In this document: piece by piece, positions 51 to 64,000 of the stretch | Layout of the letters: each line of letters starts with the position of its first letter | Numbering within the stretch: position 1 is the first letter of the stretch | Origin: Eledone cirrhosa | Taxonomy: Eukaryota | DNA: 64,000 nucleotides | Reading direction: 5' to 3' | Assembly (NCBI GenBank): GCA_964016885.1 | Contig: OZ024744.1 | Coordinates: forward strand, 132,618,001-132,682,000 | The notes under the pieces: model-generated | What the model saw: the letters and a program-made list of their open reading frames with translations, nothing else | Databases searched by the model: none | What the model was told of the DNA's origin: nothing | Made by a program: the position numbers and the translations under genes

Positions 51-731
51 TTAGGTTTTTCGAAAACCTTATATAATCATTTTTATTTAGGTTCTTCGAA
101 ACACCTTATATAATCAATTTTTTTAGGTTTTTCGAAAAACCTTATATAATCAATTTTTTAATACTTTTAGAAATATTTATATATGATTTCAAATATTGAT
201 TTTATTAGGTTTTTGGAATAATCAATTTTTTTTACGTTTTTCGAAAAATGTTATATAATCAATTTTTTTTAGGTTTTTCGAATCAATTCAATTTTTATAA
301 TCAAATATTTTTAGGTTTTTAGAAAAACCTTATATAATCAAATTTTTTTAGGTTTTTCGAAAAACCTTATATAATTAATTTTTTTATACTTTTAGAAATA
401 TTTATATCTGATTTCAAATATTGGATTTTTTAGGTTTTTCGATAATCAATTTTTTTTAGATTTTTCGAAAAATCTTATATAATCAATTTTTTTACGTTTT
501 TAGAAAGACCTTATATAATCAATTTTTTCATACTTTTAGAAATATTTATATCTGATTTCAAATATTGATTTTTTTTTTAGGTTTTTCGAAATACCTTATA
601 TAATCAATTTTTTTTAGGTTTTTCAAATTACTTTATATAATCAATTTTTTTTATCTGATTTCAAATATTGATTTTTTTAGCTTTTTCGACAAAATCTTAT
701 ATAATCAATTTTTTTTAGGTTTTTCGAAAAA

Positions 732-960
732 GAATGAATTTGAGTTCATAGTCGAAATATATACTTCTGCATTAATCTTTTTACGTTTTTTTGATTTTTT
801 TTTAAAAAACGTAAAAAATTAATGCTTTTACAAATCTTTTGAAATATTTACTTTCTAGTTTCAAATTTTGCAGATTAAATTTTTCTCGAAAAACCTAAAA
901 AATCAGTTGTCGAAATCAGAAGTTAATATTTCGAAAAACGCAATTTGAAAAACTCATATT
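732..960. repeat. Landmark segment of the satellite A module (first of ~40 copies), rich in dyad symmetry
   Basis: GAATGAATTTGAGTTCATAGTCGAAATATATACTTCTGC...CAGTTGTCGAAATCAGAAG...CGCAATTTGAAAAACTCAT recurs 8, 8, 5, 6, 5 and 8 times in A1-A6 (counted by eye). Confidence 0.9.
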
Positions 961-3900
961 AATTTTTTTTCGAAAACATTATATAATCAATTTTTTAGAA
1001 ATATTTATATCTGATTTCAAATATTGATTTTTTTAGGTTTTTCGAAAACCCTATATAATCAATTTTTTTGTACTTTTAGAAATATCTATATCTGATTTCA
1101 TGTATTGATTTTTTTATATTTTTCGAAAAATCTTATATAATCAATTTTTTTACGTTTTTAAAAAAACCTTATATAATCAATTTTTTTTAGGTTTTTCGAA
1201 AAACCTTATATAATCAATTTTTTTATGTTTTTTCGAAAAATCTTATATAATCAATTTTTTTACGTTTTTAGAAATATTTATATCTGATTTCAAATATTGA
1301 TTTTTTTTAGATTTTTCGAAATACCTTATATAATCAATTTTTTTTAGGTTTTTCAAATTACCTTATATAATCAATTTTTTTTATCTGATTTCAAATATTG
1401 ATTTTTTTAGCTTTTTCGACAAAATCTTATATAATCAATTTTTTTTAGGTTTTTCGAAAAAGAATGAATTTGAGTTCATAGTCGAAATATATACTTCTGC
1501 ATTAATCTTTTTACGTTTTTTTGATTTTTTTTAAAAAAACGTAAAAAATTAATGCTTTTACAAATCTTTTGAAATATTCACTTTCTAGTTTCAAATTTTG
1601 CAGATTAAATTTTTCTCGAAAAACCTAAAAAATCAGTTGTCGAAATCAGAAGTTAATATTTCGTAAAACGCAATTTGAAAAACTCATTAATTTTTTTTCG
1701 AAAACTTATTATATAATCAATTTTTTTATACTTTTAGAAATATTTATATCTGATTTCAAATATTGATTTTTTTAGGTTTTTCGAAAACCCTATATAATCA
1801 ATTTTTTTGTACTTTTAGAAATATCTATATCTGATTTCATGTATTGATTTTTTTATATTTTTCGAAAAAGCTTAGATAATCAATTTTTTTAGGTCTTTCG
1901 AAAACATTATATAATCAATTTTTTTTTAGGTTTTTCGAAAAAACCTTATATAATCAATTTTTTTTAGGTTTTTCAAATATTGATTTTTTTAGCTTTTTCG
2001 ACAAAATCTTATATAATCAATTTTTTTTAGGTTTTTCGAAAAAGAATGAATTTGAGTTCATAGTCGAAATATATACTTCTGCATTAATCTTTTTACGTTT
2101 TTTTGATTTTTTTAAAAAAACGTAAAAAATTAATGCTTTTACAAATCTTTTGAAATATTTACTTTCTAGTTTCAAATTTTGCAGATTAAATTTTTCTCGA
2201 AAAACCTAAAAAATCAGTTGTCGAAATCAGAAGTTAATATTTCGAAAAACGCAATTTGAAAAACTCATATTAATTTTTTTTCGAAAACATTATATAATCA
2301 ATTTTTTAGAAATATTTATATCTGATTTCAAATATTGATTTTTTTAGGTTTTTCGAAAACCCTATATAATCAATTTTTTTGTACTTTTAGAAATATCTAT
2401 ATCTGATTTCATGTATTGATTTTTTTATATTTTTCGAAAAATCTTATATAATCAATTTTTTTACGTTTTTAGAAAAACCTTATATAATCAATTTTTTTTA
2501 GGTTTTTCGAAAAACCTTATATAATCAATTTTTTTATGTTTTTTCGAAAAATCTTATATAATCAATTTTTTTACGTTTTTAGAAATATTTATATCTGATT
2601 TCAAATATTGATTTTTTTTAGATTTTTCGAAATACCTTATATAATCAATTTTTTTTAGGTTTTTCAAATTACCTTATATAATCAATTTTTTTTATCAGAT
2701 TTCAAATATTGATTTTTTTAGCTTTTTCGACAAAATCTTATATAATCAATTTTTTTTAGGTTTTTCGAAAAAGAATGAATTTGAGTTCATAGTCGAAATA
2801 TATACTTCTGCATTAATCTTTTTACGTTTTTTTGATTTTTTTTAAAAAAACGTAAAAAATTAATGCTTTTACAAATCTTTTGAAATATTTACTTTCTAGT
2901 TTCAAATTTTGCAGATTAAATTTTTCTCGAAAAACCTAAAAAATCAATTGTCGAAATCAGAAGTTAATATTTCGAAAAACGCAATTTGAAAAACTCATAT
3001 TAATTTTTTTTCGAAAACATTATATAATCAATTTTTTTTTAGGTTTTTCGAAAAAACCTTATATAATCAATTCTTTTTTTGGTTTTTTCGAAAAATCTTA
3101 TATAATCAATTTTTTTACGTTTTTAGAAAAACCTTATATAATCAATTTTTTTTAGATTTTTCAAAAAACCTTATATAATCAATTTTTTTTAGGTTTTTCG
3201 AAAAACCTTATATAATCAATTTTTTTTGTTTTTTTGAAAAATCTTATATAATCAATTTTTTTACGTTTTTAGAAATATTTATATCTGATTTCAAATATTG
3301 ATTTTTTTTAGGTTTTTCGAATTACCTTATATAATCAATTCTTTTTTTGGTTTTTTCGAAAAATCTTATATAATCAATTTTTTTACGTTTTTAGAAAAAC
3401 CTTATATAATCAATTTTTTTTAGATTTTTCAAAAAACCTTATATAATCAATTTTTTTTGTTTTTTTGAAAAATCTTATATAATCAATTTTTTTACGTTTT
3501 TAGAAATATTTATATCTGATTTCAAATATTGATTTTTTTTAGATTTTTCGAAACACCTTATATAATCAATTTTTTTTAGGTTTTTCAAATTACCTTATAT
3601 AATCAATTTTTTTTATCTGATTTCAAATATTGATTTTTTTAGCTTTTTCGACAAAATCTTATATAATCAATTTTTTTTAGGTTTTTCGAAAAAGAATGAA
3701 TTTGAGTTCATAGTCGAAATATATACTTCTGCATTAATCTTTTTACGTTTTTTTTATTTTTTAAAAAAAAACGTAAAAAATTAATGCTTTTACAAATCTT
3801 TTGAAATATTCACTATCTAGTTTCAAATTTTGCAGATTAAATTTTTCTCGAAAAACCTAAAAAATCAGTTGTCGAAATCAGAAGTTAATATTTCGTAAAA

Positions 3901-5994
3901 CGCAATTTGAAAAACTCATTAATTTTTTTTCGAAAACTTATTATATAATCAATTTTTTTATACTTTTAGAAATATTTATATCTGATTTCAAATATTGATT
4001 TTTTTAGGTTTTTCGAAAACCCTATATAATCAATTTTTTTGTACTTTTAGAAATATCTATATCTGATTTCATGTATTGATTTTTTTATATTTTTCGAAAA
4101 AGCTTAGATAATCAATTTTTTTAGGTCTTTCGAAAACCTTATATAATCAATTTTTTTTTAGGTTTTTCGAAAAAACCTTATATGATCAATTTTTTTTAGG
4201 TTTTTTCTAAAAATCTTATATAATCAATTTTTTTTAGGTTTTTCGAAAAACCTTATATAATCAATTTTTTTTGTTTTTTCGAAAAATCTTATATAATTAA
4301 TTTTTTTACGTTTTTAGAAATATTTATATCTGATTTCAAATATTGATTTTTTTTAGATTTTTCGAAATACCTTATATAATCAATTTTTTTTAGGTTTTTC
4401 AAATTACCTTATATAATCAATTTTTTTTATCAGATTTCAAATATTGATTTTTTTAGCTTTTTCGACAAAATCTTATATAATCAATTTTTTTTAGGTTTTT
4501 CGAAAAAGAATGAATTTCAGTTCATAGTCGAAATATATACTTCTGCATTTTTACGTTTTTTTGATTTTTTTTAAAAAAACGTAAAAAATTAATGCTTTTA
4601 CAAATCTTTTGAAATATTTACTTTCTAGTTTCAAATTTTGCAGATTAAATTTTTCTCGAAAAACCTAAAAAATCAGTTGTCGAAATCAGAAGTTAATATT
4701 TCGAAAAACGCAATTTGAAAAACTCATATTAATTTTTTTTCGAAAACATTATATAATCAATTTTTTAGAAATATTTATATCTGATTTCAAATATTGATTT
4801 TTTTAGGTTTTTCGAAAACCCTATATAATCAATTTTTTTGTACTTTTAGAAATATCTATATCTGATTTCATGTATTGATTTTTTTATATTTTTCGAAAAA
4901 TCTTATATAATCAATTTTTTTACGTTTTTAGAAAAACCTTATATAATCAATTTTTTTTGTTTTTTCTAAAAATCTTATATAATCAATTTTTTTTAGGTTT
5001 TTCGAAAAACCTTATATAATCAATTTTTTTATGTTTTTTCGAAAAATCTTATATAATCAATTTTTATACGTTTTTAGAAATATTTATATCTGATTTCAAA
5101 TATTGATTTTTTTTAGATTTTTCGAAATACCTTATATAATCAATTTTTTTTAGGTTTTTCAAATTACCTTATATAATCAATTTTTTTTATCTGATTTCAA
5201 ATATTGATTTTTTTAGCTTTTTCGACAAAATCTTATATAATCAATTTTTTTTAGGTTTTTCGAAAAAGAATGAATTTGAGTTCATAGTCGAAATATATAC
5301 TTCTGCATTAATCTTTTTACGTTTTTTTGAAAAAATTAATGCTTTTACAAATCTTTTGAAATATTTACTTTCTAGTTTCAAATTTTGCAGATTAAATTTT
5401 TTTCGAAAAACCTAAAAAATCAGTTGTCGAAATCAGAAGTTAATATTTCGAAAAACGCAATTTGAAAAACTCATATTAATTTCTTTTCGAAAACATTATA
5501 TAATCAATTTTTTAGAAATATTTATATCTGATTTCAAATATTGATTTTTTTAGGTTTTTCGAAAACCCTATATAATCAATTTTTTTGTACTTTTAGAAAT
5601 ATCTATATCTGATTTCATGTATTGATTTTTTTATATTTTTAGAAAAAGCTTAGATAATCAATTTTTTTAGGTCTTTCGAAAACCTTATATAATCAATTTT
5701 TTTTTAGGTTTTTCGAAAAAACCTTATATAATCATTATTTTTTAGGCTTTTTCGAAAAATCTTATATAATCAATTTTTTTACGTTTTTCGAAAAAACTTA
5801 TATCAATTTTTTTTAGGTTTTTCAAAAAACCTTATATAATCAATTTTTTTTAGGTTTTTCGAAAAACCTTATATAATCAATTTTTTTTGTTTTTTCAAAA
5901 AATCTTATATAATCAATTTTTTTACGTTTTTAGAAATATTTATATCTTATTTCAAATATTGATTTTTTTTAGATTTTTCGAAATACCTTATATA

Positions 5995-6058
5995 ATCAAT
6001 TTTTTTTAGGTTTTTCAAATCACCATAAGATAATTTGAAAAACCTAAAAAAAATTGAT
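5995..6058. repeat. 30-bp-arm inverted repeat in A1 (2 mismatches)
   Basis: ATCAAT8AGGTTTTTCAAATCACC-ATAA-GATAATTTGAAAAACCTA8TTGAT; a degenerate copy of the perfect hairpin in A2-A5. Confidence 0.9.
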
Positions 6059-6757
6059 CTGATTTCAAATATTGATTTTTTTAGCTTTTTCGACAAAATC
6101 TTATATAATCAATTTTTTTTAGGTTTTTCGAAAAAGAATGAATTTGAGTTCATAGTCGAAATATATACTTCTGCATTAATCTTTTTACGTTTTTTTGAAA
6201 AAATTAATGCTTTTACAAATCTTTTGAAATATTTACTTTCTAGTTTCAAATTTTGCAGATTAAATTTTTCTCGAAAAACCTAAAAAATCAGTTGTCGAAA
6301 TCAGAAGTTATATCTCGTAAAACGCAATTTGAAAAACTCATATTAATTTTTTTTCGAAAACTTATTATATAATCAATTTTTTTATACTTTTAGAAATATT
6401 TATATCTGATTTCAAATATTGATTTTTTTAGGTTTTTCGAAAACCCTATATAATCAATTTTTTTGTACTTTTAGAAATATCTATATCTGATTTCATGTAT
6501 TGATTTTTTTATATTTTTCGAAAAAGCTTAGATAATCAATTTTTTTAGGTCTTTCGAAAACCTTATATAATCAATTTTTTTTTAGGTTTTTCGAAAAAAC
6601 CTTATATAATCAATTTTTTTTAGGTTTTTTCGAAGTATCTTATATAATCAATTTTTTTACGTTTTTAGAAATATTTATATCTGATTTCAAATATTGATTT
6701 TTTTTAGATTTTTCGAAATACCTTATATAATCAATTTTTTTTAGGTTTTTCAAATTA

Positions 6758-6934
6758 CCCCGACTTAACCCCGACTTAACTTAACCCCAACTTAACTTAA
6801 CCCCAACTTAACTTAACCCCAACTTGACTTAACCCCAACATAACTCACACCCAACTTAACTTACCCCCAACTTAACTTAACCCCAACTTGAATTAACCCC
6901 AACTTAACTTAACCCCAACTTAACTTAACGCCAA
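6758..6934 (-). repeat. Inverted satellite B island at the A1/B1 junction
   Basis: (CCCCAACTTAACTTAA)n, the reverse complement of the monomer; ends at pivot AAAGTCGGAG (6933-6942). Confidence 0.93.
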
Positions 6935-8943
6935 AGTCGGAGTTAAGTTAAGTTGGGGTTAAGCTAAGTTGGGGGTAAGTTAAGTTGGGGGTAAGTTAAA
7001 TTGGGGTTAAGTTAAGTTGGGGTTGAGTGAAGTTGGGGTTAAGTTAAGTTGGGGTTAAGTTAAGTTAGGGTTAATTTAAGTTGGGGTTAAGTTAAGTTGG
7101 GGTTAACTTAAGTTGGGGTTAAGTTAAGTTGGGGTTAATTTAGGTTGGGGTTAAGTTAAGTTGGGGTTAAGATAAGTTGGGGTTAAGTTAAATTGAGATT
7201 AAGTTAACTTGGGTTTGAGTTAAGTTGGGGATAAGTCAAGTGGTGGTTATGTTAAGTTGGGGTTAAGTTAAGTTGGGGTTAAATTAAGTTGGGGTTAAGT
7301 TAAGTTGGGTGTAAGCTAAGTTGGGGTTGAGTGAAGTTGGGGTTAAGTTAAGTTGGGGTTAAGTAGAGTTGGGGTTAAGTTAAGTTGGGGTTAAGTTAAG
7401 TTGGTGTTAAGTTGGGGTTAAGTTAAGTTGGGGTTAAGTTAAGTTGGGGTTGAGTGAAGTTGGGGTTAAGTTAAGTTGGGGTTAAATTAAGTTGGGGTTA
7501 ACTTAAGTTGGGTTTAAGTTAAGTTGCGGTTAAGTTAAGTTGGGGTTAAGTTAAGTTGGGGTTAAGTTAAGTCGGGGTTAAGTTAAGTTGGGGTTGAGTT
7601 AAGTTGGGGTTATTTTAAGTTGAGGTTATGTTAAGTTGGGGTTAATTTAAGTTGGGGTTAAGTTAAGTTGGGGTCAATTTAAGTTGGGGTTAAGTTCAGT
7701 TGGGGTTAATTTAAGTTGGGGTTAAGTTAAGTTGGGTTTAAGTTAAGTTGGGGTTAAGTTAAGTTGGGGTTAAGTTAAGTTGGGTTTAAGTTAAGTTGGG
7801 GCTAAGTTAAGTTGGGTCTAATTTGAGTTGGGGTTAAGTTAAGTTGGGGTTAAGTTAAGTTGAGGTTAAATTAAGTTGGGGTTAATTAAGTTGGGGTTAA
7901 GTTAAGTTGAGGTTAAGTTAACTTGGGGTTAAGTTAAGTTGGGGTTAAGTTAAGTTGGGGTTGAGTTAAGTTGGGGTTGAGTTAAGTTGGGGTTAAGTTA
8001 AGTTGGGGTTAAGTTAAGTTGGGGTTAAGTTAAGTTGGGGTTAATTTAAGTTCGGGTTAAGTTAAGTTCGGGGTAAGCTAAGTTGGGGTTCAGTTAAATC
8101 GGGTCTAAGTTAAGTGGGAGGTTAAGTTAAGTTGGGGTTGAGTTAAGTTGTGGTTAAGTTAACTTGGGGTTAAGTTAAGTTAAGTTTGAGTTAAGTTGGG
8201 GTTAAGTTGGGGTTAAGTTAAGTTGGGGTTAAGTTACGTTGGGGTTAAGTTAAGTTGGGATTAAGTTGAGGTTAAGTTAAGTTGTGGTTAAGTTAAGTTG
8301 GGGCTAAGTTAAGTTGGGGCTAAGTTAAGTTGGGGTTAAGTTAAGTTGGGGTTAATTTAAGTTGGGGTTAGGTTAAGTTGGGGATAAGTTAAGTTGGGGA
8401 TAAGTTAAGTTGGGGTTAAGTTAAGTTGGGTTTAAGTTAAGCTGGGGTTAAGTTAAGTTGGGGTTAAATTAAGTTGGGGTTAAGTTAAGTTTGGGTTAGG
8501 TTAAGTTGGGGATAAGTTAAGTTGGGGATAAGTTAAGTTGGGGTTAAGTTAAGTTGGGTTTAAGTTAAGTTGGGGTTAAGTTAAGTTGGGGTTAAGTTAA
8601 GTTGGGGTTAAGTTAAGTTGCGGTTAGTTAAGTTGAGTTTAAGTTAAGTTGGGGTTAATTTAAGTTGGGGTTAAGTTAAGTTGGGGTTCAGTTCAGTTGG
8701 GGTTAAGTCAAGTTGGGGTTAAGTTAAGTTGGGGTTAAGTTAAGTTGGGGTTAGGTTAAGTTGGGGATAATTTAAGTTGGGGATAAGCTAAGTTGGGGTT
8801 AAGTTAAGTTGGGTTTAAGTTAAGTTGGGGTTAAGTTAAGTTGGGGTTAAATTAAGTTGGGGTTAAGTTAAGCTGGGGTTAAATTAAGTTGGGGTTATGT
8901 TAAGTTGGGGTTAAGTTAAGTTGGGGTTAGTTTAAGTGGGGTT

Positions 8944-9288
8944 AACCCCAACTTAACTTAACCCCAACTTAACTTAACCCCAACTTCACTCAACCCCAAC
9001 TTAAATTAACCCCAACTTCACTCAACCCCAACTTAACTCAACCCCAACTTAAATTAACCCCAACTTAACTTAACCCTGACTTAACTTAACCCCGACTTAA
9101 CTTAACCCCGACTTAACTTAACCCCAACTTAACTTAAACCCCAACTTAACTTAACCCCAACTTAACTTAACCCCAACTTGACTTAACCCCAACTTAACTC
9201 ACACCCAACTTAACTTACCCCTAACTTAACTTAACCACAACTTGACGTAAACCCAACTTAACTTAACCCCAACTTAACTTAACCCCAA
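8944..9288 (-). repeat. Internal inverted satellite B island 1
   Basis: Starts in GGGGTTAACCCC (8938-8949) and ends at AAAGTCGGAG (9287-9296). Confidence 0.93.
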
Positions 9289-9947
9289 AGTCGGAGTTCA
9301 GTTAAGTTGGGGTTCAGTTAAGTTAGGCTTAACTTAAGTTGGGGTTGAGTTAAGTTGGGGGTAAGTTAAGTTGGGGGTAAGTTAAGTTGGGGTTAAGTTA
9401 AGTTGGGGTTAAGTTGGGGTTAAGTTAAGTTAGGGTTAAGTTAAGTTGGGGTTGACTTAAGTTGGGGTTAAGTTAAGTGGTGGTTATGTTAAGTTGGGGT
9501 TAAGTTAAGTTGGGGTTAAATTAAGTGGGGTTAACTTAAGTTGGGTGTAAGTTAAGTTGGGGTTGAGTGAAGTTGGGGTTAAGTTAAGTTGGGGTTAAGT
9601 TAAGTTAGGGTTAATTTAAGTTGGGGTTATGATAAGTTGGTGTTAAGTTAAGTTGGGGTTAAGTCGAGTTGGGGTTAAGTTAAGTTGGGGTTAAGTTAAA
9701 TTGGTGTTAAGTTAAGTTGGGGTTAAGTTAAGTTGGGGTTAGTTAAGTTGAGTTTAAGTTAAGTTGGGGTTAATTTAAGTTGGGGTTAAGTTAAGTTGGG
9801 GTTCAGTTAAGTTGGGGTTAAGTTAAGTTGGGGTTGAGTTAAGTTGTGGTTAAGTTAAGTTGGGGTTAGGTTAAGTTGGGGTTAAGTTAAGCTGGGGTTA
9901 AATTAAGTTGGGGTTAAGTTAAGTTGGGGTTAGGTTAAGTTGGGGTT

Positions 9948-10212
9948 AACCCCAACTTCACTCAACCCCAACTTAACTTAACCCCAACTTCACTCAACCC
10001 CAACTTAACTCAACCCCAACTTAACTTAACCCCAACTTAACTTAACCCTAACTTAACTTAACCCCGACTTAAACTTAACCCCGACTTAACTTAACCCCAA
10101 CTTAACTTAACCCCAACTTAACTTAACCCCAACTTAACTTAATCCCAACTTGACTTAACCCCAACTTAACTCACACCCAACTTAACTTACCCCCAACTTA
10201 ACTTAACCCCAA
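9948..10212 (-). repeat. Internal inverted satellite B island 2
   Basis: Starts in GGGGTTAACCCC (9942-9953) and ends at AAAGTCGGAG (10211-10220). Confidence 0.93.
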
Positions 10213-13200
10213 AGTCGGAGTTAAGTTAAGTTGGGGTTAAGTTAAGTTAGGCTTAACTTAAGTTGGGGTTAAGTTAAGTTGGGGGTAAGTTAAGTTGGGG
10301 GTAAGTTAAGTTGGGGTTAAGTTAAGTTGGGGTTAAGATAAGTGGTGGTTATGTTAAGTTGAGGTTAAGTTAAGTTAGGGTTAAATTAAGTTGGGGTTAA
10401 GTTAAGTTGGGTGTAAGTTAAGTTGGGGTTGAGTGAAGTTGGGGTTAAGTTAAGTTGGGGTTAAGTAGAGTTGGGGTTAAGTTAAGTTGGGGTTAAGTTA
10501 AGTTGGTGTTAAGTTGGGGTTAAGTTAAGTTGGGGTTAAGTTGGGGTTAAGTTAAGTGGTGGTTATGTTAAGTTGGGGTTAACTTAAGTTGGGGTTAATT
10601 TAAATTGGGGTTAAGTTAACTTTGTGGTTAAGTTAAGTTGGGGTTAAGTTAAGTTGGGGTTAAATTAAGTTGGGGTTGAGTGAAGTTGGGGTTAAGTTAA
10701 GTTGGGGTTAAGTTAAGTTGGGGTTAACTTAAGTTGGGTTTAAGTTAAGTTGCGGTTAAGTTAAGTTGGGGTTAAGTTAAGTTAGGGTTAAGTTAAGTCG
10801 GGGTTAATTTAAGTTGGGGTTGAGTTAAGTTGGGGTTAATTTAAGTTGAGGTTATGTTAAGTAGGGGTTAATTTAAGTTGGGGTTAAGTTAAGTTGGGGT
10901 TAAGTTAAGTTGGGGTTAATTTAAGTTGGGATTAAGTTCAGTTGGGGTTAAATTAAGTTGGGGTTAAGTTAAGCTGGGGTTAAATTAAGTTGGGGTTAAG
11001 TTAAGTTGGGGTTAAGTTAAGTTGGGGTTAAGTTAAGTTAGGGTTAATTTAAGTTGGGGTTATGTTAAGTTGGGGTTAAGTTAAGTTGGGGTTAAGTCGA
11101 GTTGGGGTTAAGTTAAGTTGGGGTTAGTTAAGTTGAGTTTAAGTTAAGTTGGGGTTAATTTAAGTTGGGGTTAAGTTAAGTTGGGGTTCAGTTAAGTTGG
11201 GGTTAAGTTAAGTTGGGGTTAAGTTAAGTTGGTTTAAGTTAAGTTGGGGTTAGGTTAAGTTGGGGATAAGTTAAGTTGGGGATAAGCTAAGTTGGGGTTA
11301 AGTTAAGTTGGGTTTAAGTTAAGTTGGGGTTAAGTTAAGTTAGGCTTAACTTAAGTTGGGGTTAAGTTAAGTTGGGGGTAAATTAAGTTGGGGGTAAGTT
11401 AAGTTGGGGTTAAGTTAAGTTGGGGTTAAGTTAAGTGGTGGTTATGTTAAGTTGGGGTTAAGTTAAGTTGGGGTTAAATTAAGTTGGGGTTAAGTTATGT
11501 TGGGTGTAAGTTAAGTTGGGGTTGAGTGAAGTTGGGGTTAAGTTAAGTTGGGGTTAAGTTAAGTTAGGGTTAATTTAAGTTGGGGTTATGTTAAGTTGGG
11601 GTTAAGTTAAGTTGGGGTTAAGTAGAGTTGTGGTTAAGTTAAGTTGGGGTTAAGTTAAGTTGGTGTTAAGTTGGGGTTAAGTTAAGTTGGGGTTAAGTTA
11701 AGTCGGGGTTAAGTTAAGTTGGGGTTGAGTTAAGTTGGGGTTAATTTAAGTTGAGGTTATGTTAAGTTGGGGTTAATTTAAGTTGGCGTTAATTTAAGTT
11801 GGGGTTAAGTTAAGTTGGGGTTAAGTTGAGGTTAAGTTAAGTTGTGGTTAAGTTAAGTTGGGGCTAAGTTAAGTTGGGGCTAAGTTAAGTTGGGGCTAAG
11901 TTAAGTTGGGGTTAAGTTAAGTTGGGGTTAAGTTAAGTTGGGTTTAATTTAATTTGGGGTCAACTTAAGTTGGGGTTAAGTTGAGTTGGGGTTAAATTAA
12001 GTTGGGGTTAATTTAAGTTGGGGCTAAGTTAAGTTGGGGCTGAGTTAAGTTGGGGTTAAGTTAAGTTGGGGTTAAGTTAAGTTGGGGTTAAGTTAATTTT
12101 GGGTTAAGTTAAGTTGTGGTTCAGTTAAGTTGGGGTTAAGTTAAGTTTGGGTTAATTTGGGGTTAAATTAAGTTGGGGTTAAGTTAAGTTGGGGTTAAGT
12201 TAAGTTGGGGTTAAGTTAAGTTGGGGTTAATTTAAGTTGGGGTTAAGTTAAGTCGGGGTTAAGTTAAGTCGGTGTTAAGTTAAGTTAGGGTTAAGTTAAG
12301 TTGGGGTTAAGTTAAGTTGGCTTTAAGTTAAGCTGGGGTTAAGTTAAGTTGGGGTTAAATTAAGTTGGGGTTAAGTTAAGTTGGGGTTAGGTTAAGTTTG
12401 GGTTAGGTTAAGTTGGGGTTAAATTAAGTTGGGGTTAAGTTAAGTTGGGGTTAGGTTAAGTTGGGGATAAGTTAAGTTGGGGATAATTTAAGTTGGGGTT
12501 AAGTTAAGTTGGGTTTAAGTTAAGCTGGGGTTAAGTTAAGTTGGGGTTAAATTAAGTTGGGGTTAAGTTAAGTTGGGGTTAAGTTAAGTTTGGGTTAGGT
12601 TAAGTTGGGGATTAGTTAAGTTGGGGATAAGTTAAGTTGGGGTTAAGTTAAGTTGGGTTTAAGTTAAGTTGTGGTTAAGTTAAGTTGGGGTTAAGTTAAG
12701 TTGGGGCTTAAGTTAAGTTGGGGTTAGGTTAAGTTGGGGATAAGTTAAGTTGGGGATAATTTAAGTTGGGGTTAAGTTAAGTTGGGTTTAAGTTAAGCTG
12801 GGGTTAAGTTAACTTGGGGTTAAATTAAGTTGGGGTTAAGTTAAGTTGGGGTTAAGTTAAGTTTGGGTTAGGTTAAGTTGGGGATTAGTTAAGTTGGGGA
12901 TAAGTTAAGTTGGGGTTAATTTAAGTTGGGTTTAAGTTAAGTTGTGGTTAAGTTAAGCTGGGGTTAAGTTAAGTTGGGGTTAAATTAAGTTGGGGTTAAT
13001 TTAAGTTGGGGTTAAGTTAAGTTGGGGTTCAGTTAAGTTGGGGATAAGTCAAGTTGGGGTTAAGTTAAGTTGGGGTTAAGTTAAGTTGGGGTTAGGTTAA
13101 GTTGGGGATAAGTTAAGTTGGGGATAAGCTAAGTTGGGGTTAAGTTAAGTTGGGTTTAAGTTAAGTTGGGGTTAAGTTAAGTTGGGGTTAAATTAAGTTG

Positions 13201-13269
13201 GAGATAAGTTAAGCTGGGGTTAAATTAAGTTGGGGTTAAGTTAAGTTGGGGTTAGGTTAAGTTGGGGTT

Positions 13270-53700: not shown

Positions 53701-54614
53701 ATTAAGTTGTGGTTAAGTTAAGTTGGGGTTAAGTTAAGTTGGGGTTAATTTAAGTTGGGGTTGTGTTAAGTTGGGGTTAAGTTAAGTTGGGGATAAGTTA
53801 AGTTGGGGTTAAGTTAAGTTGGGGGTAAGTTAAGTTGGTGGTAAGTTAAGTTGGGGTTAAGTTAAGTTGGGGTTAATTTAAATTGGGGTTAATTTAACTT
53901 TGTGGTTAAGTTAAGTTGGGGTTTATTTAAGTTGGGTTTAAGTTAAGTTGGGGTTGAGTTAAGTTGGGGTTGAGTGAAGTTGGGGTTAAGTTAAGTCGGG
54001 GTTAATTTAAGTTGGGGTTGAGTTAAGTCGGGGCTAATTTAAGTTGGGGCTAAGTTAATTTGTGGTTAAGTTAAGTTGGGGTTAAGTTAAGTTGGGGTTA
54101 AGTTAAGTTGGGGGTAAGTTAAGTTGGGGGCAAGATAAGTTGGGGTTAAGTTAAGTTGCGGTTAAGTTAAGTTGGGGTTAATTTAAGTTGGGTTTAAGTT
54201 AAGTTGGGGTTCAGTTAAGTTGGGGTTAATTTAAGTTGGGGTTAAGTTAAGTTGGGGTTGAGTTAAGTTGGGGTTTAATTAAGTTGGGGTTGAGTTAAGT
54301 TGGGGTTGAGTTAAGTGGGGGTTGAGTTAAGTTGGGGTTAAGCTAAGTTGGGGTTAAGTTAAATTGAGGTTAAGTTAACTTGGGTTTGAGTTAAGTTGGG
54401 GTTAAGTTAAGTTGGTGTTAAGTTCAGTTCAGGTTAAGTTAACTTGGGGTTAAGTTAAGTTGGGGTTGAGTTAAGTTGGGGTTGAGTTAAGTTGGGGTTA
54501 AGTTAAGTTGGGGTTAACTTAAGTTGGGGTTAAGTTAAGTTGGGGTTAATTTAAGTTGGGGTTCAGTTAAATTGAGGTTAAGATAACTTGGGTTTGCGTT
54601 AAGATGGGGTTAAG
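50724..54614 (+). repeat. Satellite B block B5, short type (3891 bp); inverted island 50724-50900
   Basis: Same variant order as B2/B3; pivot at 50899. Confidence 0.95.
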
Positions 54615-57600
54615 TTAGGTTTTTCGAAAACCTTATATAATCATTTTTATTTAGGTTCTTCGAAACACCTTATATAATCAATTTTTTTAGGTTTTTCGAA
54701 AAACCTTATATAATCAATTTTTTAATACTTTTAGAAATATTTATATATGATTTCAAATATTGATTTTATTAGGTTTTTGGAATAATCAATTTTTTTTACG
54801 TTTTTCGAAAAATGTTATATAATCAATTTTTTTTAGGTTTTTCGAATCAATTCAATTTTTATAATCAAATATTTTTAGGTTTTTAGAAAAACCTTATATA
54901 ATCAAATTTTTTTAGGTTTTTCGAAAAACCTTATATAATTAATTTTTTTATACTTTTAGAAATATTTATATCTGATTTCAAATATTGGATTTTTTAGGTT
55001 TTTCGATAATCAATTTTTTTTAGATTTTTCGAAAAATCTTATATCAATTTTTTTACGTTTTTAGAAAGACCTTATATAATCAATTTTTTCATACTTTTAG
55101 AAATATTTATATCTGATTTCAAATATTGATTTTTTTTTTAGGTTTTTCGAAATACCTTATATAATCAATTTTTTTTAGGTTTTTCAAATTACTTTATATA
55201 ATCAATTTTTTTTATCTGATTTCAAATATTGATTTTTTAGCTTTTTCGACAAAATCTTATATAATCAATTTTTTTTAGGTTTTTCGAAAAAGAATGAATT
55301 TGAGTTCATAGTCGAAATATATACTTCTGCATTAATCTTTTTACGTTTTTTTTATTTTTTTTAAAAAAACGTAAAAAATTAATGCTTTTACAAATCTTTT
55401 GAAATATTTACTTTCTAGTTTCAAATTTTGCAGATTAAATTTTTCTCGAAAAACCTAAAAAATCAGTTGTCGAAATCAGAAGTTAATATTTCGAAAAACG
55501 CAATTTGAAAAACTCATATTAATTTTCTTTCGAAAACATTATATAATCAATTTTTTAGAAATATTTATATCTGATTTCAAATATTGATTTTTTTAGGTTT
55601 TTCGAAAACCCTATATAATCAATTTTTTTGTACTTTTAGAAATATCTATATCTGATTTCATGTATTGATTTTTTTATATTTTTCGAAAAATCTTATATAA
55701 TCAATTTTTTTACGTTTTTAAAAAAACCTTATATAATCAATTTTTTTTAGGTTTTTCGAAAAACCTTATATAATCAATTTTTTTATGTTTTTTAGAAAAA
55801 TCTTATATAATCAATTTTTTTACGTTTTTAGAAATATTTATATCTGATTTCAAATATTGATTTTTTTTAGATTTTTCGAAATACCTTATATAATCAATTT
55901 TTTTTAGGTTTTTCAAATTACCTTATATAATCAATTTTTTTTATCTGATTTCAAATATTGATTTTTTTAGCTTTTTCGACAAAATCTTATATAATCAATT
56001 TTTTTTAGGTTTTTCGAAAAAGAATGAATTTGAGTTCATAGTCGAAATATATACTTCTGCATTAATCTTTTTACGTTTTTTTGATTTTTTTTAAAAAAAC
56101 GTAAAAAATTAATGCTTTTACAAATCTTTTGAAATATTCACTTTCTAGTTTCAAATTTTGCAGATTAAATTTTTCTCGAAAAACCTAAAAAATCAGTTGT
56201 CGAAATCAGAAGTTAATATTTCGTAAAACGCAATTTGAAAAACTCATTAATTTTTTTTCGAAAACTTATTATATAATCAATTTTTTTATACTTTTAGAAA
56301 TATTTATATCTGATTTCAAATATTGATTTTTTTAGGTTTTTCGAAAACCCTATATAATCAATTTTTTTGTACTTTTAGAAATATCTATATCTGATTTCAT
56401 GTATTGATTTTTTTATATTTTTCGAAAAAGCTTAGATAATCAATTTTTTTAGGTCTTTCGAAAACATTATATAATCAATTTTTTTTTAGGTTTTTCGAAA
56501 AAACCTTATATAATCAATTTTTTTTAGGTTTTTCAAATATTGATTTTTTTAGCTTTTTCGACAAAATCTTATATAATCAATTTTTTTTAGGTTTTTCGAA
56601 AAAGAATGAATTTGAGTTCATAGTCGAAATATATACTTCTGCATTAATCTTTTTACGTTTTTTTGATTTTTTTAAAAAAACGTAAAAAATTAATGCTTTT
56701 ACAAATCTTTTGAAATATTTACTTTCTAGTTTCAAATTTTGCAGATTAAATTTTTCTCGAAAAACCTAAAAAATCAGTTGTCGAAATCAGAAGTTAATAT
56801 TTCGAAAAACGCAATTTGAAAAACTCATATTAATTTTTTTTCGAAAACATTATATAATCAATTTTTTAGAAATATTTATATCTGATTTCAAATATTGATT
56901 TTTTTAGGTTTTTCGAAAACCCTATATAATCAATTTTTTTGTACTTTTAGAAATATCTATATCTGATTTCATGTATTGATTTTTTTATATTTTTCGAAAA
57001 ATCTTATATAATCAATTTTTTTACGTTTTTAGAAAAACCTTATATAATCAATTTTTTTTAGGTTTTTCGAAAAACCTTATATAATCAATTTTTTTATGTT
57101 TTTTCGAAAAATCTTATATAATCAATTTTTTTACGTTTTTAGAAATATTTATATCTGATTTCAAATATTGATTTTTTTTAGATTTTTCGAAATACCTTAT
57201 ATAATCAATTTTTTTTAGGTTTTTCAAATTACCTTATATAATCAATTTTTTTTATCAGATTTCAAATATTGATTTTTTTAGCTTTTTCGACAAAATCTTA
57301 TATAATCAATTTTTTTTAGGTTTTTCGAAAAAGAATGAATTTGAGTTCATAGTCGAAATATATACTTCTGCATTAATCTTTTTACGTTTTTTTGATTTTT
57401 TTTAAAAAAACGTAAAAAATTAATGCTTTTACAAATCTTTTGAAATATTTACTTTCTAGTTTCAAATTTTGCAGATTAAATTTTTCTCGAAAAACCTAAA
57501 AAATCAGTTGTCGAAATCAGAAGTTAATATTTCGAAAAACGCAATTTGAAAAACTCATATTAATTTTTTTTCGAAAACATTATATAATCAATTTTTTTTT

Positions 57601-60600
57601 AGGTTTTTCGAAAAAACCTTATATAATCAATTCTTTTTTTGGTTTTTTCGAAAAATCTTATATAATCAATTTTTTTACGTTTTTAGAAAAACCTTATATA
57701 ATCAATTTTTTTTAGATTTTTCAAAAAACCTTATATAATCAATTTTTTTTAGGTTTTTCGAAAAACCTTATATAATCAATTTTTTTTGTTTTTTTGAAAA
57801 ATCTTATATAATCAATTTTTTTACGTTTTTAGAAATATTTATATCTGATTTCAAATATTGATTTTTTTTAGGTTTTTCGAATTACCTTATATAATCAATT
57901 CTTTTTTTGGTTTTTTCGAAAAATCTTATATAATCAATTTTTTTACGTTTTTAGAAAAACCTTATATAATCAATTTTTTTTAGATTTTTCAAAAAACCTT
58001 ATATAATCAATTTTTTTTGTTTTTTTGAAAAATCTTATATAATCAATTTTTTTACGTTTTTAGAAATATTTATATCTGATTTAAAATATTGATTTTTTTT
58101 AGATTTTTCGAAACACCTTATATAATCAATTTTTTTTAGGTTTTTCAAATTACCTTATATAATCAATTTTTTTTATCTGATTTCAAATATTGATTTTTTT
58201 AGCTTTTTCGACAAAATCTTATATAATCAATTTTTTTTAGGTTTTTCGAAAAAGAATGAATTTGAGTTCATAGTCGAAATATATACTTCTGCATTAATCT
58301 TTTTACGTTTTTTTTATTTTTTTTAAAAAAACGTAAAAAATTAATGCTTTTACAAATCTTTTGAAATATTCACTAGTTTCAAATTTTGCAGATTAAATTT
58401 TTCTCGAAAAACCTAAAAAATCAGTTGTCGAAATCAGAAGTTAATATTTCGTAAAACGCAATTTGAAAAACTCATTAATTTTTTTTCGAAAACTTATTAT
58501 ATAATCAATTTTTTTATACTTTTAGAAATATTTATATCTGATTTCAAATATTGATTTTTTTAGGTTTTTCGAAAACCCTATATAATCAATTTTTTTGTAC
58601 TTTTAGAAATATCTATATCTGATTTCATGTATTGATTTTTTTATATTTTTCGAAAAAGCTTAGATAATCAATTTTTTTAGGTCTTTCGAAAACCTTATAT
58701 AATCAATTTTTTTTTAGGTTTTTCGAAAAAACCTTATATGATCAATTTTTTTTAGGTTTTTTCTAAAAATCTTATATAATCAATTTTTTTTAGGTTTTTC
58801 GAAAAACCTTATATAATCAATTTTTTTTGTTTTTTCGAAAAATCTTATATAATTAATTTTTTTACGTTTTTAGAAATATTTATATCTGATTTCAAATATT
58901 GATTTTTTTTAGATTTTTCGAAATACCTTATATAATCAATTCTTTTTAGGTTTTTCAAATTACCTTATATAATCAATTTTTTTTATCAGATTTCAAATAT
59001 TGATTTTTTTAGCTTTTTCGACAAAATCTTATATAATCAATTTTTTTTAGGTTTTTCGAAAAAGAATGAATTTGAGTTCATAGTCGAAATATATACTTCT
59101 GCATTAATCTTTTTACGTTTTTTTTATTTTTTTTAAAAAAACGTAAAAAATTAATGCTTTTACAAATCTTTTGAAATATTCACTAGTTTCAAATTTTGCA
59201 GATTAAATTTTTCTCGAAAAACCTAAAAAATCAGTTGTCGAAATCAGAAGTTAATATTTCGTAAAACGCAATTTGAAAAACTCATTAATTTTTTTTCGAA
59301 AACTTATTATATAATCAATTTTTTTATACTTTTAGAAATATTTATATCTGATTTCAAATATTGATTTTTTTAGGTTTTTCGAAAACCCTATATAATCAAT
59401 TTTTTTGTACTTTTAGAAATATCTATATCTGATTTCATGTATTGATTTTTTTATATTTTTCGAAAAAGCTTAGATAATCAATTTTTTTAGGTCTTTCGAA
59501 AACCTTATATAATCAATTTTTTTTTAGGTTTTTCGAAAAAACCTTATATGATCAATTTTTTTTAGGTTTTTTCTAAAAATCTTATATAATCAATTTTTTT
59601 TAGGTTTTTCGAAAAACCTTATATAATCAATTTTTTTTGTTTTTTCGAAAAATCTTATATAATTAATTTTTTTACGTTTTTAGAAATATTTATATCTGAT
59701 TTCAAATATTGATTTTTTTTAGATTTTTCGAAATACCTTATATAATCAATTTTTTTTAGGTTTTTCAAATTACCTTATATAATCAATTTTTTTTATCAGA
59801 TTTCAAATATTGATTTTTTTAGCTTTTTCGACAAAATCTTATATAATCAATTTTTTTTAGGTTTTTCGAAAAAGAATGAATTTGAGTTCATAGTCGAAAT
59901 ATATACTTCTGCATTTTTACGTTTTTTTGATTTTTTTTAAAAAAACGTAAAAAATTAATGCTTTTACAAATCTTTTGAAATATTTACTTTCTAGTTTCAA
60001 ATTTTGCAGATTAAATTTTTCTCGAAAAACCTAAAAAATCAGTTGTCGAAATCAGAAGTTAATATTTCGAAAAACGCAATTTGAAAAACTCATATTAATT
60101 TTTTTTCGAAAACATTATATAATCAATTTTTTAGAAATATTTATATCTGATTTCAAATATTGATTTTTTTAGGTTTTTCGAAAACCCTATATAATCAATT
60201 TTTTTGTACTTTTAGAAATATCTATATCTGATTTCATGTATTGATTTTTTTATATTTTTCGAAAAATCTTATATAATCAATTTTTTTACGTTTTTAGAAA
60301 AACCTTATATAATCAATTTTTTTTGTTTTTTCTAAAAATCTTATATAATCAATTTTTTTTAGGTTTTTCGAAAAACCTTATATAATCAATTTTTTTATGT
60401 TTTTTCGAAAAATCTTATATAATTAATTTTTATACGTTTTTAGAAATATTTATATCTGATTTCAAATATTGATTTTTTTTAGATTTTTCGAAATACCTTA
60501 TATAATCAATTTTTTTTAGGTTTTTCAAATTACCTTATATAATCAATTTTTTTTATCTGATTTCAAATATTGATTTTTTTAGCTTTTTCGACAAAATCTT

Positions 60601-61255
60601 ATATAATCAATTTTTTTTAGGTTTTTCGAAAAAGAATGAATTTGAGTTCATAGTCGAAATATATACTTCTGCATTAATCTTTTTACGTTTTTTTGAAAAA
60701 ATTAATGCTTTTACAAATCTTTTGAAATATTTACTTTCTAGTTTCAAATTTTGCAGATTAAATTTTTCTCGAAAAACCTAAAAAATCAGTTGTCGAAATC
60801 AGAAGTTATATCTCGTAAAACGCAATTTGAAAAACTCATATTAATTTTTTTTCGAAAACTTATTATATAATCAATTTTTTTATACTTTTAGAAATATTTA
60901 TATCTGATTTCAAATATTGATTTTTTTAGGTTTTTCGAAAACCCTATATAATCAATTTTTTTGTACTTTTAGAAATATCTATATCTGATTTCATGTATTG
61001 ATTTTTTTATATTTTTCGAAAAAGCTTAGATAATCAATTTTTTTAGGTCTTTCGAAAACCTTATATAATCAATTTTTTTTTAGGTTTTTCGAAAAAACCT
61101 TATATAATCAATTTTTTTTAGGTTTTTTCGAAGTATCTTATATAATCAATTTTTTTACGTTTTTAGAAATATTTATATCTGATTTCAAATATTGATTTTT
61201 TTTAGATTTTTCGAAATACCTTATATAATCAATTTTTTTTAGGTTTTTCAAATTA
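54615..61255 (+). repeat. Satellite A block A6 (~6.6 kb, 8 modules; no 30-bp hairpin)
   Basis: Same junctions; eight landmark copies; no ACCATAAGGT motif seen. Confidence 0.95.
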
Positions 61256-64000
61256 CCCCGACTTAACCCCGACTTAACTTAACCCCAACTTAACTTAACC
61301 CCAACTTAACTTAACCCCAACTTGACTTAACCCCAACATAACTCACACCCAACTTAACTTACCCCCAACTTAACTTAACCCCAACTTGACTTAACCCCAA
61401 CTTAACTTAACCCCAACTTAACTTAACGCCAAAGTCGGAGTTAAGTTAAGTTGGGGTTAAGCTAAGTTGGGGGTAAGTTAAGTTGGGGGTAAGTTAAATT
61501 GGGGTTAAGTTAAGTTGGGGTTGAGTGAAGTTGGGGTTAAGTTAAGTTGGGGTTAAGTTAAGTTAGGGTTAATTTAAGTTGGGGTTAAGTTAAGTTGGGG
61601 TTAACTTAAGTTGGGGTTAAGTTAAGTTGGGGTTAATTTAGGTTGGGGTTAAGTTAAGTTGGGGTTAAGATAAGTTGGGGTTAAGTTAAATTGAGATTAA
61701 GTTAACTTGGGTTTGAGTTAAGTTGGGGATAAGTCAAGTGGTGGTTATGTTAAGTTGGGGTTAAGTTAAGTTGGGGTTAAATTAAGTTGGGGTTAAGTTA
61801 AGTTGGGTGTAAGCTAAGTTGGGGTTGAGTGAAGTTGGGGTTAAGTTAAGTTGGGGTTAAGTAGAGTTGGGGTTAAGTTAAGTTGGGGTTAAGTTAAGTT
61901 GGTGTTAAGTTGGGGTTAAGTTAAGTTGGGGTTGAGTGAAGTTGGGGTTAAGTTAAGTTGGGGTTAAATTAAGTTGGGGTTAACTTAAGTTGGGTTTAAG
62001 TTAAGTTGCGGTTAAGTTAAGTTGGGGTTAAGTTAAGTTGGGGTTAAGTTAAGTCGGGGTTAAGTTAAGTTGGGGTTGAGTTAAGTTGGGGTTATTTTAA
62101 GTTGAGGTTATGTTAAGTTGGGGTTAATTTAAGTTGGGGTTAAGTTAAGTTGGGGTCAATTTAAGTTGGGGTTAAGTTCAGTTGGGGTTAATTTAAGTTG
62201 GGGTTAAGTTAAGTTGGGTTTAAGTTAAGTTGGGGTTAAGTTAAGTTGGGGTTAAGTTAAGTTGGGTTTAAGTTAAGTTGGGGCTAAGTTAAGTTGGGTC
62301 TAATTTGAGTTGGGGTTAAGTTAAGTTGGGGTTAAGTTAAGTTGAGGTTAAATTAAGTTGGGGTTAATTAAGTTGGGGTTAAGTTAAGTTGGGGTTAAGT
62401 TAAGTTGAGGTTAAGTTAACTTGGGGTTAAGTTAAGTTGGGGTTAAGTTAAGTTGGGGTTGAGTTAAGTTGGGGTTGAGTTAAGTTGGGGTTAAGTTAAG
62501 TTGGGGTTAAGTTAAGTTGGGGTTAAGTTAAGTCGGGGTTAATTTAAGTTCGGGTTAAGTTAAGTTCGGGGTAAGCTAAGTTGGGGTTCAGTTAAATCGG
62601 GTCTAAGTTAAGTGGGAGGTTAAGTTAAGTTGGGGTTGAGTTAAGTTGTGGTTAAGTTAACTTGGGGTTAAGTTAAGTTAAGTTTGAGTTAAGTTGGGGT
62701 TAAGTTGGGGTTAAGTTAAGTTGGGGTTAAGTTACGTTGGGGTTAAGTTAAGTTGGGGTTAAGTTGAGGTTAAGTTAAGTTGTGGTTAAGTTAAGTTGGG
62801 GCTAAGTTAAGTTGGGGCTAAGTTAAGTTGGGGTTAAGTTAAGTTGGGGTTAATTTAAGTTGGGGTTAGGTTAAGTTGGGGATAAGTTAAGTTGGGGATA
62901 AGTTAAGTTGGGGTTAAGTTAAGTTGGGTTTAAGTTAAGCTGGGGTTAAGTTAAGTTGGGGTTAAATTAAGTTGGGGTTAAGTTAAGTTTGGGTTAGGTT
63001 AAGTTGGGGATAAGTTAAGTTGGGGATAAGTTAAGTTGGGGTTAAGTTAAGTTGGGTTTAAGTTAAGTTGGGGTTAAGTTAAGTTGGGGTTAAGTTAAGT
63101 TGGGGTTAAGTTAAGTTGCGGTTAGTTAAGTTGAGTTTAAGTTAAGTTGGGGTTAATTTAAGTTGGGGTTAAGTTAAGTTGGGGTTCAGTTCAGTTGGGG
63201 TTAAGTCAAGTTGGGGTTAAGTTAAGTTGGGGTTAAGTTAAGTTGGGGTTAGGTTAAGTTGGGGATAATTTAAGTTGGGGATAAGCTAAGTTGGGGTTAA
63301 GTTAAGTTGGGTTTAAGTTAAGTTGGGGTTAAGTTAAGTTGGGGTTAAATTAAGTTGGGGTTAAGTTAAGCTGGGGTTAAATTAAGTTGGGGTTATGTTA
63401 AGTTGGGGTTAAGTTAAGTTGGGGTTAGTTTAAGTGGGGTTAACCCCAACTTAACTTAACCCCAACTTAACTTAACCCCAACTTCACTCAACCCCAACTT
63501 AAATTAACCCCAACTTCACTCAACCCCAACTTAACTCAACCCCAACTTAAATTAACCCCAACTTAACTTAACCCTGACTTAACTTAACCCCGACTTAACT
63601 TAACCCCGACTTAACTTAACCCCAACTTAACTTAAACCCCAACTTAACTTAACCCCAACTTAACTTAACCCCAACTTGACTTAACCCCAACTTAACTCAC
63701 ACCCAACTTAACTTACCCCTAACTTAACTTAACCACAACTTGACGTAAACCCAACTTAACTTAACCCCAACTTAACTTAACCCCAAAGTCGGAGTTCAGT
63801 TAAGTTGGGGTTCAGTTAAGTTAGGCTTAACTTAAGTTGGGGTTGAGTTAAGTTGGGGGTAAGTTAAGTTGGGGGTAAGTTAAGTTGGGGTTAAGTTAAG
63901 TTGGGGTTAAGTTGGGGTTAAGTTAAGTTAGGGTTAAGTTAAGTTGGGGTTGACTTAAGTTGGGGTTAAGTTAAGTGGTGGTTATGTTAAGTTGGGGTTA
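61256..64000 (+). repeat. Satellite B block B6, long type (cut by window end); inverted island 61256-61432
   Basis: Variant order follows B1 beyond the point where B2-B5 diverge; pivot at 61431. Confidence 0.94.
63442..63786 (-). repeat. Internal inverted satellite B island (copy of 8944-9288)
   Basis: GGGGTTAACCCC at 63436-63447, shared private variants (CCCTGAC, CTTGACGTAAACCC), pivot at 63785. Confidence 0.93.

What the first reader, a model, noticed from the sequence alone, without database searches (positions are those of the whole stretch)
51..64000. Composite macro-satellite: two satellites with no evident monomer similarity amplified as one 8-19-kb unit with invariant junctions
Seen: all six B->A junctions read GATGGGGTTAAG|TTAGGTTTTTCGAAAACC (A starts at 51, 18718, 29155, 37272, 46498, 54615). 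All six A->B junctions read TTTTTCAAATTA|CCCCGACTTAACCCCGAC (B starts at 6758, 25264, 33381, 42623, 50724, 61256). A+B unit lengths are 18667, 10437, 8117, 9226 and 8117 bp, so borders are fixed while interiors change size. Inference: each junction arose once, and the fused unit was then amplified by unequal exchange, break-induced replication or rolling-circle copying. Regular alternation of an AT-rich dyad-rich domain and a G-tract domain could be a centromeric, subtelomeric or terminal structure. This is the best candidate for an undescribed system here, but the sequence alone does not show function.
Basis: partly seen in the sequence, partly recalled or inferred. Interest (0 to 1): 0.75.

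Follow-up and report, generated by a model that had tools for sequence, protein, structure and literature searches.

The report
AT-rich islands copied inside giant satellite
The alternating blocks are real, but they are a small slice of an 8.4-million-base array of a short G-rich repeat into which an unrelated AT-rich repeat likely entered once and was likely copied along by ordinary unequal recombination, a layout already known from beetle and human-Y satellites; a centromere role is possible but untested.

Summary
Observation confirmed: both junction 30-mers occur 6 of 6 times at the stated places, with the stated unit lengths. The interpretation needs correcting. The window lies inside an ~8.4-Mb array of the 16-bp G-rich satellite B that ends 1.15 Mb before the contig end; A is a guest. 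Invariance is local: over 731 kb of this array the exact 30-mers mark only 16 of 54 left and 11 of 54 right A-block edges outside the window, and there are three junction classes per side. In the window, 95% of unit 3's 30-mers recur exactly in units 1, 2, 4 and 5, so junctions are no more conserved than interiors. Recombinant units point to unequal exchange. The same genome holds other fixed-junction composites, including A-family with a B relative on another chromosome. Closest known: Tribolium madens TmSat2 cassettes and human Yq12. The scan found this array before on neighbouring DNA (e1-10311076, e1-10311123, e1-10311127). Verdict: new member of a known kind; centromere role open (about 0.2).

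The parts
1..50 (+). End of the preceding B block (G strand)
51..6757 (+). A block 1 (6707 bp): 36-37-bp monomers with an 18-bp perfect palindrome (example 2500-2517) and ~240-bp spacers (first at 729-968)
6758..18717 (+). B block 1 (11960 bp, long type): 16-bp monomer (example 7035-7050); starts with inverted run 6758-6934; internal inversions at about 8944-9281, 9948-10205, 13270-13558
18718..25263 (+). A block 2 (6546 bp)
25264..29154 (+). B block 2 (3891 bp, short type = long type minus about 8 kb), inverted run 25264-25440
29155..33380 (+). A block 3 (4226 bp) = A block 2 minus one 2316-bp in-register gap and two small indels
33381..37271 (+). B block 3 (3891 bp), identical to B block 2
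37272..42622 (+). A block 4 (5351 bp): recombinant, 5' subunits as in blocks 3/5/6, 3' subunits as in block 2
42623..46497 (+). B block 4 (3875 bp) = B block 2 minus one 16-bp monomer
46498..50723 (+). A block 5 (4226 bp), identical to A block 3
50724..54614 (+). B block 5 (3891 bp), one substitution from B blocks 2 and 3
54615..61255 (+). A block 6 (6641 bp): recombinant, 5' subunits as in blocks 3-5, last subunit as in block 1
61256..64000 (+). B block 6 (cut by window end), long type like B block 1, with internal inversion at about 63442-63779
39..68 (+). B->A junction, class L1 (also at 18706, 29143, 37260, 46486, 54603); the first seven A letters match the continuation of the B monomer at 6 of 7 places
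   Evidence: sequence
6746..6775 (+). A->B junction, class R3 (also at 25252, 33369, 42611, 50712, 61244), joining A to the inside of an inverted B run

Best explanation
The window is a slice of an 8.4-Mb array of a 16-base G-rich satellite (B) interrupted by blocks of an unrelated AT-rich satellite (A), which likely joined B once at a few shared letters and was then likely copied along with its B flanks by unequal recombination between misaligned units. Such exchanges can only pair A with A and B with B, so they would add or remove whole monomers and subunits inside a block and leave the junction untouched; fixed borders with elastic interiors are the default outcome and need no selection. 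Rare non-homologous deletions likely made new junctions (three classes on each side), each then spread locally. Shown: anatomy, nesting in the B array, junction classes, in-register indels, recombinant units. Inferred: order of events, the recombination route, microhomology use. The block most likely acts as constitutive heterochromatin without a role specific to the junctions.
For: B fills all samples from 127.0 to 135.35 Mb of contig C28, not 126.95 or 135.36. Junction 30-mers occur only on C28 (28 and 20 hits). 51 of 59 left junctions are one class, shared by two subfamilies ~10% apart; right junctions are 30 + 16 + 13 in three regionally separate classes. Control: 7651 of 8088 30-mers of unit 3 recur exactly in units 1, 2, 4 and 5; units 3 and 5 differ at 1 of 8117 bases. 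Length differences are whole-monomer or whole-subunit gaps (16 bp, 2316 bp). Blocks 4 and 6 are 5'/3' mosaics of other blocks. B's own strand switches behave the same way: 68 of 78 G->C and 97 of 102 C->G switches reuse one junction family. Other fixed-junction composites exist in this genome (C2, C25/C916, C28 124.7-126.4 Mb). The left junction is covered by continuous depth in raw reads of a second sample (7 reads 99+% alike).
Against: The A family meets G-rich B-type repeats at three chromosomes, each time with the same polarity (C28, C25/C916, C2), which may reflect an old adjacency or a functional pairing rather than one accident. A-family arrays lie near the middle of two giant contigs (C2 50%, C1 57%), as a centromeric satellite would. 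Several junction overlaps are only 2-3 letters, chance level in AT-rich DNA. No long reads were served, so the number and order of units rest on the assembly.
Confidence: 0.72

Rival explanations
1. Same origin, but the A/B mosaic is the functional (peri)centromere of this chromosome: dyad-rich A blocks (largest 40.9 kb, 0.27-0.31 Mb before the window) would seat the kinetochore and B would be pericentric heterochromatin.
For: A is 18% GC with 6.5 perfect 12-bp palindromes per kb against 2.2 in shuffles. A blocks are longest at 132.31-132.50 Mb and shrink outwards (1.5-2.2 kb at 132.01-132.06, 0.7 kb at 132.76-132.78). A-family arrays found on C1, C2, C25, C28. Intermixed two-family centromeres are on record (10.64898/2026.09.17.752431, passages). 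Octopod C-bands are mostly centromeric (PMC6160780, passages).
Against: A is only 43% of the richest 257 kb and absent from most of the B array; the C1 A-prime array spans only ~85 kb; C28 has A in three separate stretches (124.6, 128.5-129.6, 132.0-132.8 Mb); the chromosome arm carries many other large satellites; terminal and interstitial C-bands also occur in octopods. I could verify only 4 chromosome-sized contigs.
Confidence: 0.2
2. A blocks are a mobile element (foldback, MITE or Helitron with internal repeats) that inserted repeatedly into B at a preferred site.
For: A has hairpin-rich monomers and spacer (fold z -5.6 and -4.3) and occurs on several chromosomes.
Against: No terminal inverted repeats (A motif 380 forward, 0 reverse); no coding frame (longest 91 codons between stops, 24 from ATG); the left B flank is shared by descent while the right end differs by region; the first 100 listed of 732 A-monomer hits all lie in tandem arrays on C2 and C28, none dispersed.
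Confidence: 0.03
3. The composite was amplified mainly as excised circles (rolling-circle copying and reinsertion).
For: Units of 8-9 kb; two units differ at one base.
Against: Neighbouring units differ in length and are mosaics of one another, whereas one rolling-circle event gives identical neighbours; the composite has not spread off C28.
Confidence: 0.08
4. The periodic array is an assembly artefact (mis-joined or over-expanded repeats).
For: Units 2-5 are almost identical over kilobases; no served record spans a unit; an inverted copy of the distal end of the array sits beside a 200-N gap at 124.69 Mb.
Against: The left junction has continuous raw-read depth in another sample; six junction classes and dozens of distinct block lengths are not what a collapse or loop would make.
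Confidence: 0.05
5. B is the telomeric repeat or the block is a chromosome terminus.
For: B is G-rich on one strand, mostly oriented G-strand toward the near contig end, and 234 four-G-run motifs with loops up to 12 (none with loops up to 7) occur in 27.5 kb.
Against: B ends 1.15 Mb before the contig end, beyond which lie other satellites; B contains many inversions; 24,922 matches to 20 canonical telomere hexamers exist in the genome; B also lies mid-contig on C2.
Confidence: 0.02

Closest known systems
Tribolium madens TmSat2 cassettes within TmSat1 (PMC13081366; abstract and section 7 read)
   Same: Minor satellite embedded as cassettes in a multi-megabase major satellite; conserved transition zones on each side; variable repeat number inside; reused inversion junctions.
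   Different: TmSat1 and TmSat2 share a ~110-bp ancestor, A and B do not; TmSat2 cassettes are themselves dyads, A blocks on C28 run one way; the Tribolium mosaic is on all chromosomes, these junctions only on C28; here junction classes are regional.
Human Yq12 DYZ1/DYZ2 (10.1101/2022.12.01.518658; five passages read)
   Same: Megabase heterochromatin of alternating arrays of two different satellites, one AT-rich, varying in number and size, with large inversions.
   Different: Yq12 keeps about 1:1 monomer numbers and has kilobase monomers; here A is a minority confined to parts of the B array and monomers are 16 and 37 bp.
Ditypic intermixed satellite centromeres (10.64898/2026.09.17.752431; 11 passages read)
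   Same: Two satellite families intermixed in one region.
   Different: Those are centromere candidates shared between chromosomes; here centromere status is untested. The words octopus, cephalopod and mollusc do not occur in the main text; its supplements were not seen.

Membership tests
T. madens-type satellite cassettes | Minor satellite in blocks inside a multi-megabase major satellite | tested here: met
T. madens-type satellite cassettes | Conserved transition zones with variable interior | tested here: met
   three classes per side, 51 of 59 left junctions one class; blocks 0.7-40.9 kb
T. madens-type satellite cassettes | Reused inversion sites | tested here: met
   in B only: 68 of 78 and 97 of 102 switches
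T. madens-type satellite cassettes | The two satellites share ancestry | tested here: not met
   so it works like, but is not, that family
T. madens-type satellite cassettes | Same junctions on all chromosomes | tested here: not met
   all 28 and 20 hits on C28
Yq12-type alternating heterochromatin | Two unrelated satellites in alternating arrays | tested here: met
Yq12-type alternating heterochromatin | Fixed ratio of the two repeats | tested here: not met
   A is 43% of the richest 257 kb and absent from most B samples
Yq12-type alternating heterochromatin | On a sex chromosome | not tested
   an earlier AI note (e1-10311127) says so; not checked
Centromeric satellite | CENP-A occupancy | not testable with these tools
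   no ChIP or CUT&RUN data
Centromeric satellite | One region on every chromosome | tested here: inconclusive
   A family seen on C1, C2, C25, C28 and unplaced C916; searches list only the first 100 or best 40 places
Telomeric repeat | At the chromosome end in one orientation | tested here: not met
Telomeric repeat | Is the genome's telomerase repeat | tested here: not met
   canonical hexamer arrays abundant
DNA transposon / foldback element | Terminal inverted repeats or transposase | tested here: not met
DNA transposon / foldback element | Target-site duplication | tested here: inconclusive
   flanks are satellite; no clear duplication
rDNA intergenic-spacer subrepeat | Present in the spacer of intact rDNA units | tested here: not met
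   no A, B or C-module signal in 120 kb around intact units on C12, C4, C25, bar a 51-bp weak match in two C4 flanks

The most novel reading that the evidence does not exclude
The AT-rich, palindrome-rich A family and the G-tract B/B32 family are a recurring two-part (peri)centromeric module of octopod chromosomes: paired with the same polarity on at least three chromosomes, with the 41-kb pure A block 0.3 Mb upstream of this window as the kinetochore seat. This would give the first sequence handle on cephalopod centromeres.
Probability: 0.2. Interest if true: 0.6.

Novelty: new member of a known kind. Interest (0 to 1): 0.24.

Why it matters
As it stands it is a clean worked example that fixed junctions with elastic interiors arise by default in satellite arrays, with a control (interiors as conserved as junctions) that bears on functional readings of conserved transition zones such as those proposed for Tribolium. 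The two repeat families appear undescribed (no paper found in searches). If A marks centromeres, it would supply probes for an unmapped structure in what is likely an octopod genome with very large, possibly fused chromosomes.

Tried and rejected
rDNA-spacer origin of A, B or the GC-rich module: rejected, although a degraded 18S fragment lies next to the B array. Rfam scan of 14 loci, 94 kb: 0 matches. Coding capacity: none. Mapping the A family on all chromosomes: reference searches returned only the nearest array, so a genome-wide count was not obtained. Look-up of earlier findings by sequence: nothing. Sequencing runs: no RNA holder listed, no evidence either way; X1-X3 may be the source sample and are not counted as independent. 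A weak joint in X7 (A end to opposite-strand B, 7 reads, 22 letters on the short side) fits a direct A-to-G-strand junction but is too short to count. Translation of a zinc-finger-like array in L124 was in the wrong frame and not followed. Paper searches gave nothing useful. The octopod assignment is inference only: 2.87-kb 18S matches, a SINE-like stretch in L036 recognised from memory, 84-bp periodic arrays, and unreviewed earlier notes.

Full report
1. Observation. Both quoted 30-mers occur six times each at the stated coordinates and never on the other strand. Unit lengths are as stated. A is 18.3% GC, built of 36-37-bp monomers with an 18-bp palindrome and a ~240-bp spacer; B is 37.6% GC with a 16-bp monomer. 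The monomers are unrelated. There is no coding frame. Each B block opens with a ~175-bp inverted run; the same run occurs inside long B blocks, so the A->B junction cuts into an older B inversion.

2. Context. The window is G000:C28:132,618,001-132,682,000 of a 136.5-Mb contig in a 3.0-Gb genome. B fills every sample from 127.0 to 135.35 Mb, but not 126.95 or 135.36 Mb: about 8.4 Mb, ending 1.15 Mb before the contig end. A more diverged 32-bp relative (B32; 9 of 2000 shuffles score as high against B) borders B at 135.35 and 124.56 Mb. A blocks are guests in three stretches: 128.56-129.59, 132.01-132.79 and an inverted copy at 124.63 Mb. The contig ends in other satellites, and 24,922 matches to 20 canonical telomere hexamers exist elsewhere, so this is not a terminus. 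The animal is likely an octopod (inference; see Tried and rejected).

3. Are the junctions invariant? Only locally. In 731 kb of C28 (stretches chosen partly from pattern hits, so not a random sample; window included) there were 60 left and 60 right A edges, one of each belonging to a 220-bp foreign insert. The exact 30-mers mark 22 of 60 left and 17 of 60 right edges (16 of 54 and 11 of 54 outside the window). True left junctions fall into three classes (51, 4, 4) and right ones into three (30, 16, 13), each class regional. The main left class is shared by two A subfamilies about 10% apart; its 70 flanking bases differ at 5 places between them, close to the interior rate. Inside the window 7651 of 8088 30-mers of unit 3 recur exactly in units 1, 2, 4 and 5, and units 3 and 5 differ at 1 of 8117 bases. 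Junction identity is therefore what recent duplication gives for any site. Block sizes are not fixed either: A 0.7-40.9 kb, B gaps 0.5-28 kb.

4. Mechanism. Length differences are in-register gaps: one 16-mer between B blocks, 2316 bp between A blocks 2 and 3, about 8 kb between long and short B. A block 4 has the 5' subunits of blocks 3, 5, 6 and the 3' subunits of block 2; block 6 has the 5' subunits of 3-5 and the end and following B of unit 1. These mosaics point to unequal exchange or conversion between misaligned units (inferred); a single rolling-circle event would give identical neighbours. Homology-driven exchange pairs A with A and B with B and cannot move a junction; only rare non-homologous events make new ones. 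Junction overlaps seen in the sequence are 2-8 letters (6 of 7 at window 51-57); the short ones are chance level. B's strand switches show the same behaviour (68 of 78 and 97 of 102 reuse one junction family, in the window plus 49 loci) and can fold into long hairpins (z -23 and -35).

5. Not unique in this genome. C2:209.196-209.875 Mb is a composite of B blocks and a GC-rich module with fixed junctions; its junction is also seen in contigs of runs labelled as two other organisms. C25:19.87-19.94 Mb and unplaced C916 hold A-family blocks (spacer 88% identical to the window's) alternating with 6.6-6.8-kb B32 cassettes, with their own fixed junctions in 5 of 5 cassettes read. C2:209.877 Mb has a 1.75-kb pure A array joined to B32-like DNA. 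C28:124.7-126.4 Mb is a macro-array with an 18S fragment and a 1584-bp satellite. A-prime arrays (~70% to A) lie on C1 and C2. All three A-to-G-rich joins have the same polarity; chance gives that one time in four, so it is only a hint of an old adjacency. Intact rDNA spacers lack these repeats.

6. Reality in raw data. In run X8 (another sample and study) 7 reads are 99+% alike and depth is continuous across the left junction (8 and 2 before, 7 and 2 after; five molecules end at one place, so few independent starts). No served record spans a unit. In X6 (another organism label) the spacer is present at about 90% identity and B at only about 10-15 times its depth, against several hundred times in X1; summed depths are not copy numbers, but this suggests that B expanded recently.

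7. Comparison with what is known. PMC13081366 (abstract and section 7 read) describes TmSat2 cassettes in TmSat1 with conserved transition zones, conserved inversion sites and variable interiors; there the satellites are related. Human Yq12 alternates two different satellites (passages). The centromere atlas lists intermixed two-family centromeres and does not mention cephalopods in its main text (passages; supplements not seen). Octopod C-bands are mostly centromeric but also terminal and interstitial (PMC6160780, passages). Searches found no description of these repeats. Earlier unreviewed notes on neighbouring DNA of this array reached a similar reading; they are not independent support, and they supplied the two papers.

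8. Verdict. Real, non-coding, a new member of a known kind of satellite mosaic. Passive co-amplification 0.72; functional centromere 0.2. Interest 0.24.

Noticed in passing
G000:C2:209,196,000-209,875,000 (L063-L071, L058, L059): A 680-kb composite of B 16-mer blocks and a GC-rich module in 420-550-bp units with fixed junctions, at the midpoint of a 416-Mb contig, flanked by A-prime and A arrays; its junction appears in runs of two other organism labels.
   Followed up: partly
G000:C25:19,865,000-19,940,000 (L125-L132) and C916 (L133-L137): Second composite: A-family blocks alternating with 6.6-6.8-kb cassettes of a 32-bp G-rich relative of B.
   Followed up: partly
G000:C28:124.7-126.4 Mb (L078-L095): Macro-array of roughly 30-50-kb units holding a 5' fragment of 18S rDNA that decays into satellite, 169-172-bp spacer repeats and a 1584-bp palindromic satellite; a copy of the fragment also at C18:6.72 Mb.
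   Followed up: partly
G000:C28:124.56-124.69 Mb (L170, L171, L014, L015, L083-L086): Inverted copy of the distal end of the B array (B32, B and two A blocks) beside a 200-N gap: an inversion or duplication, or a scaffolding misplacement.
   Followed up: no
G000:C28:132.8-133.2 Mb (L006-L010): A domain of at least 0.4 Mb where B runs on the opposite strand.
   Followed up: no
G000:C28:132,444,177-132,444,396 (L194): A 220-bp foreign insert inside an A block.
   Followed up: no
L059:8720-9010 (C2:209.8787-209.8790 Mb): Repeated strand switches in a small A array at the monomer palindromes, like template-switch scars.
   Followed up: no
G000:C1:217.9-218.1 Mb and C2:0.82 Mb: Internal arrays of the canonical telomere hexamer, one near the middle of the 443-Mb contig: possible fusion scar.
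   Followed up: no
G000:C12, C25, C4, C2: Full 18S matches of about 2870 bases on at least four contigs; spacer subrepeats of 613-1429 bp.
   Followed up: no
G000:C1:251.2-251.3 Mb (L177-L179): A 25-27-bp satellite array of at least 100 kb directly beyond the A-prime array.
   Followed up: no
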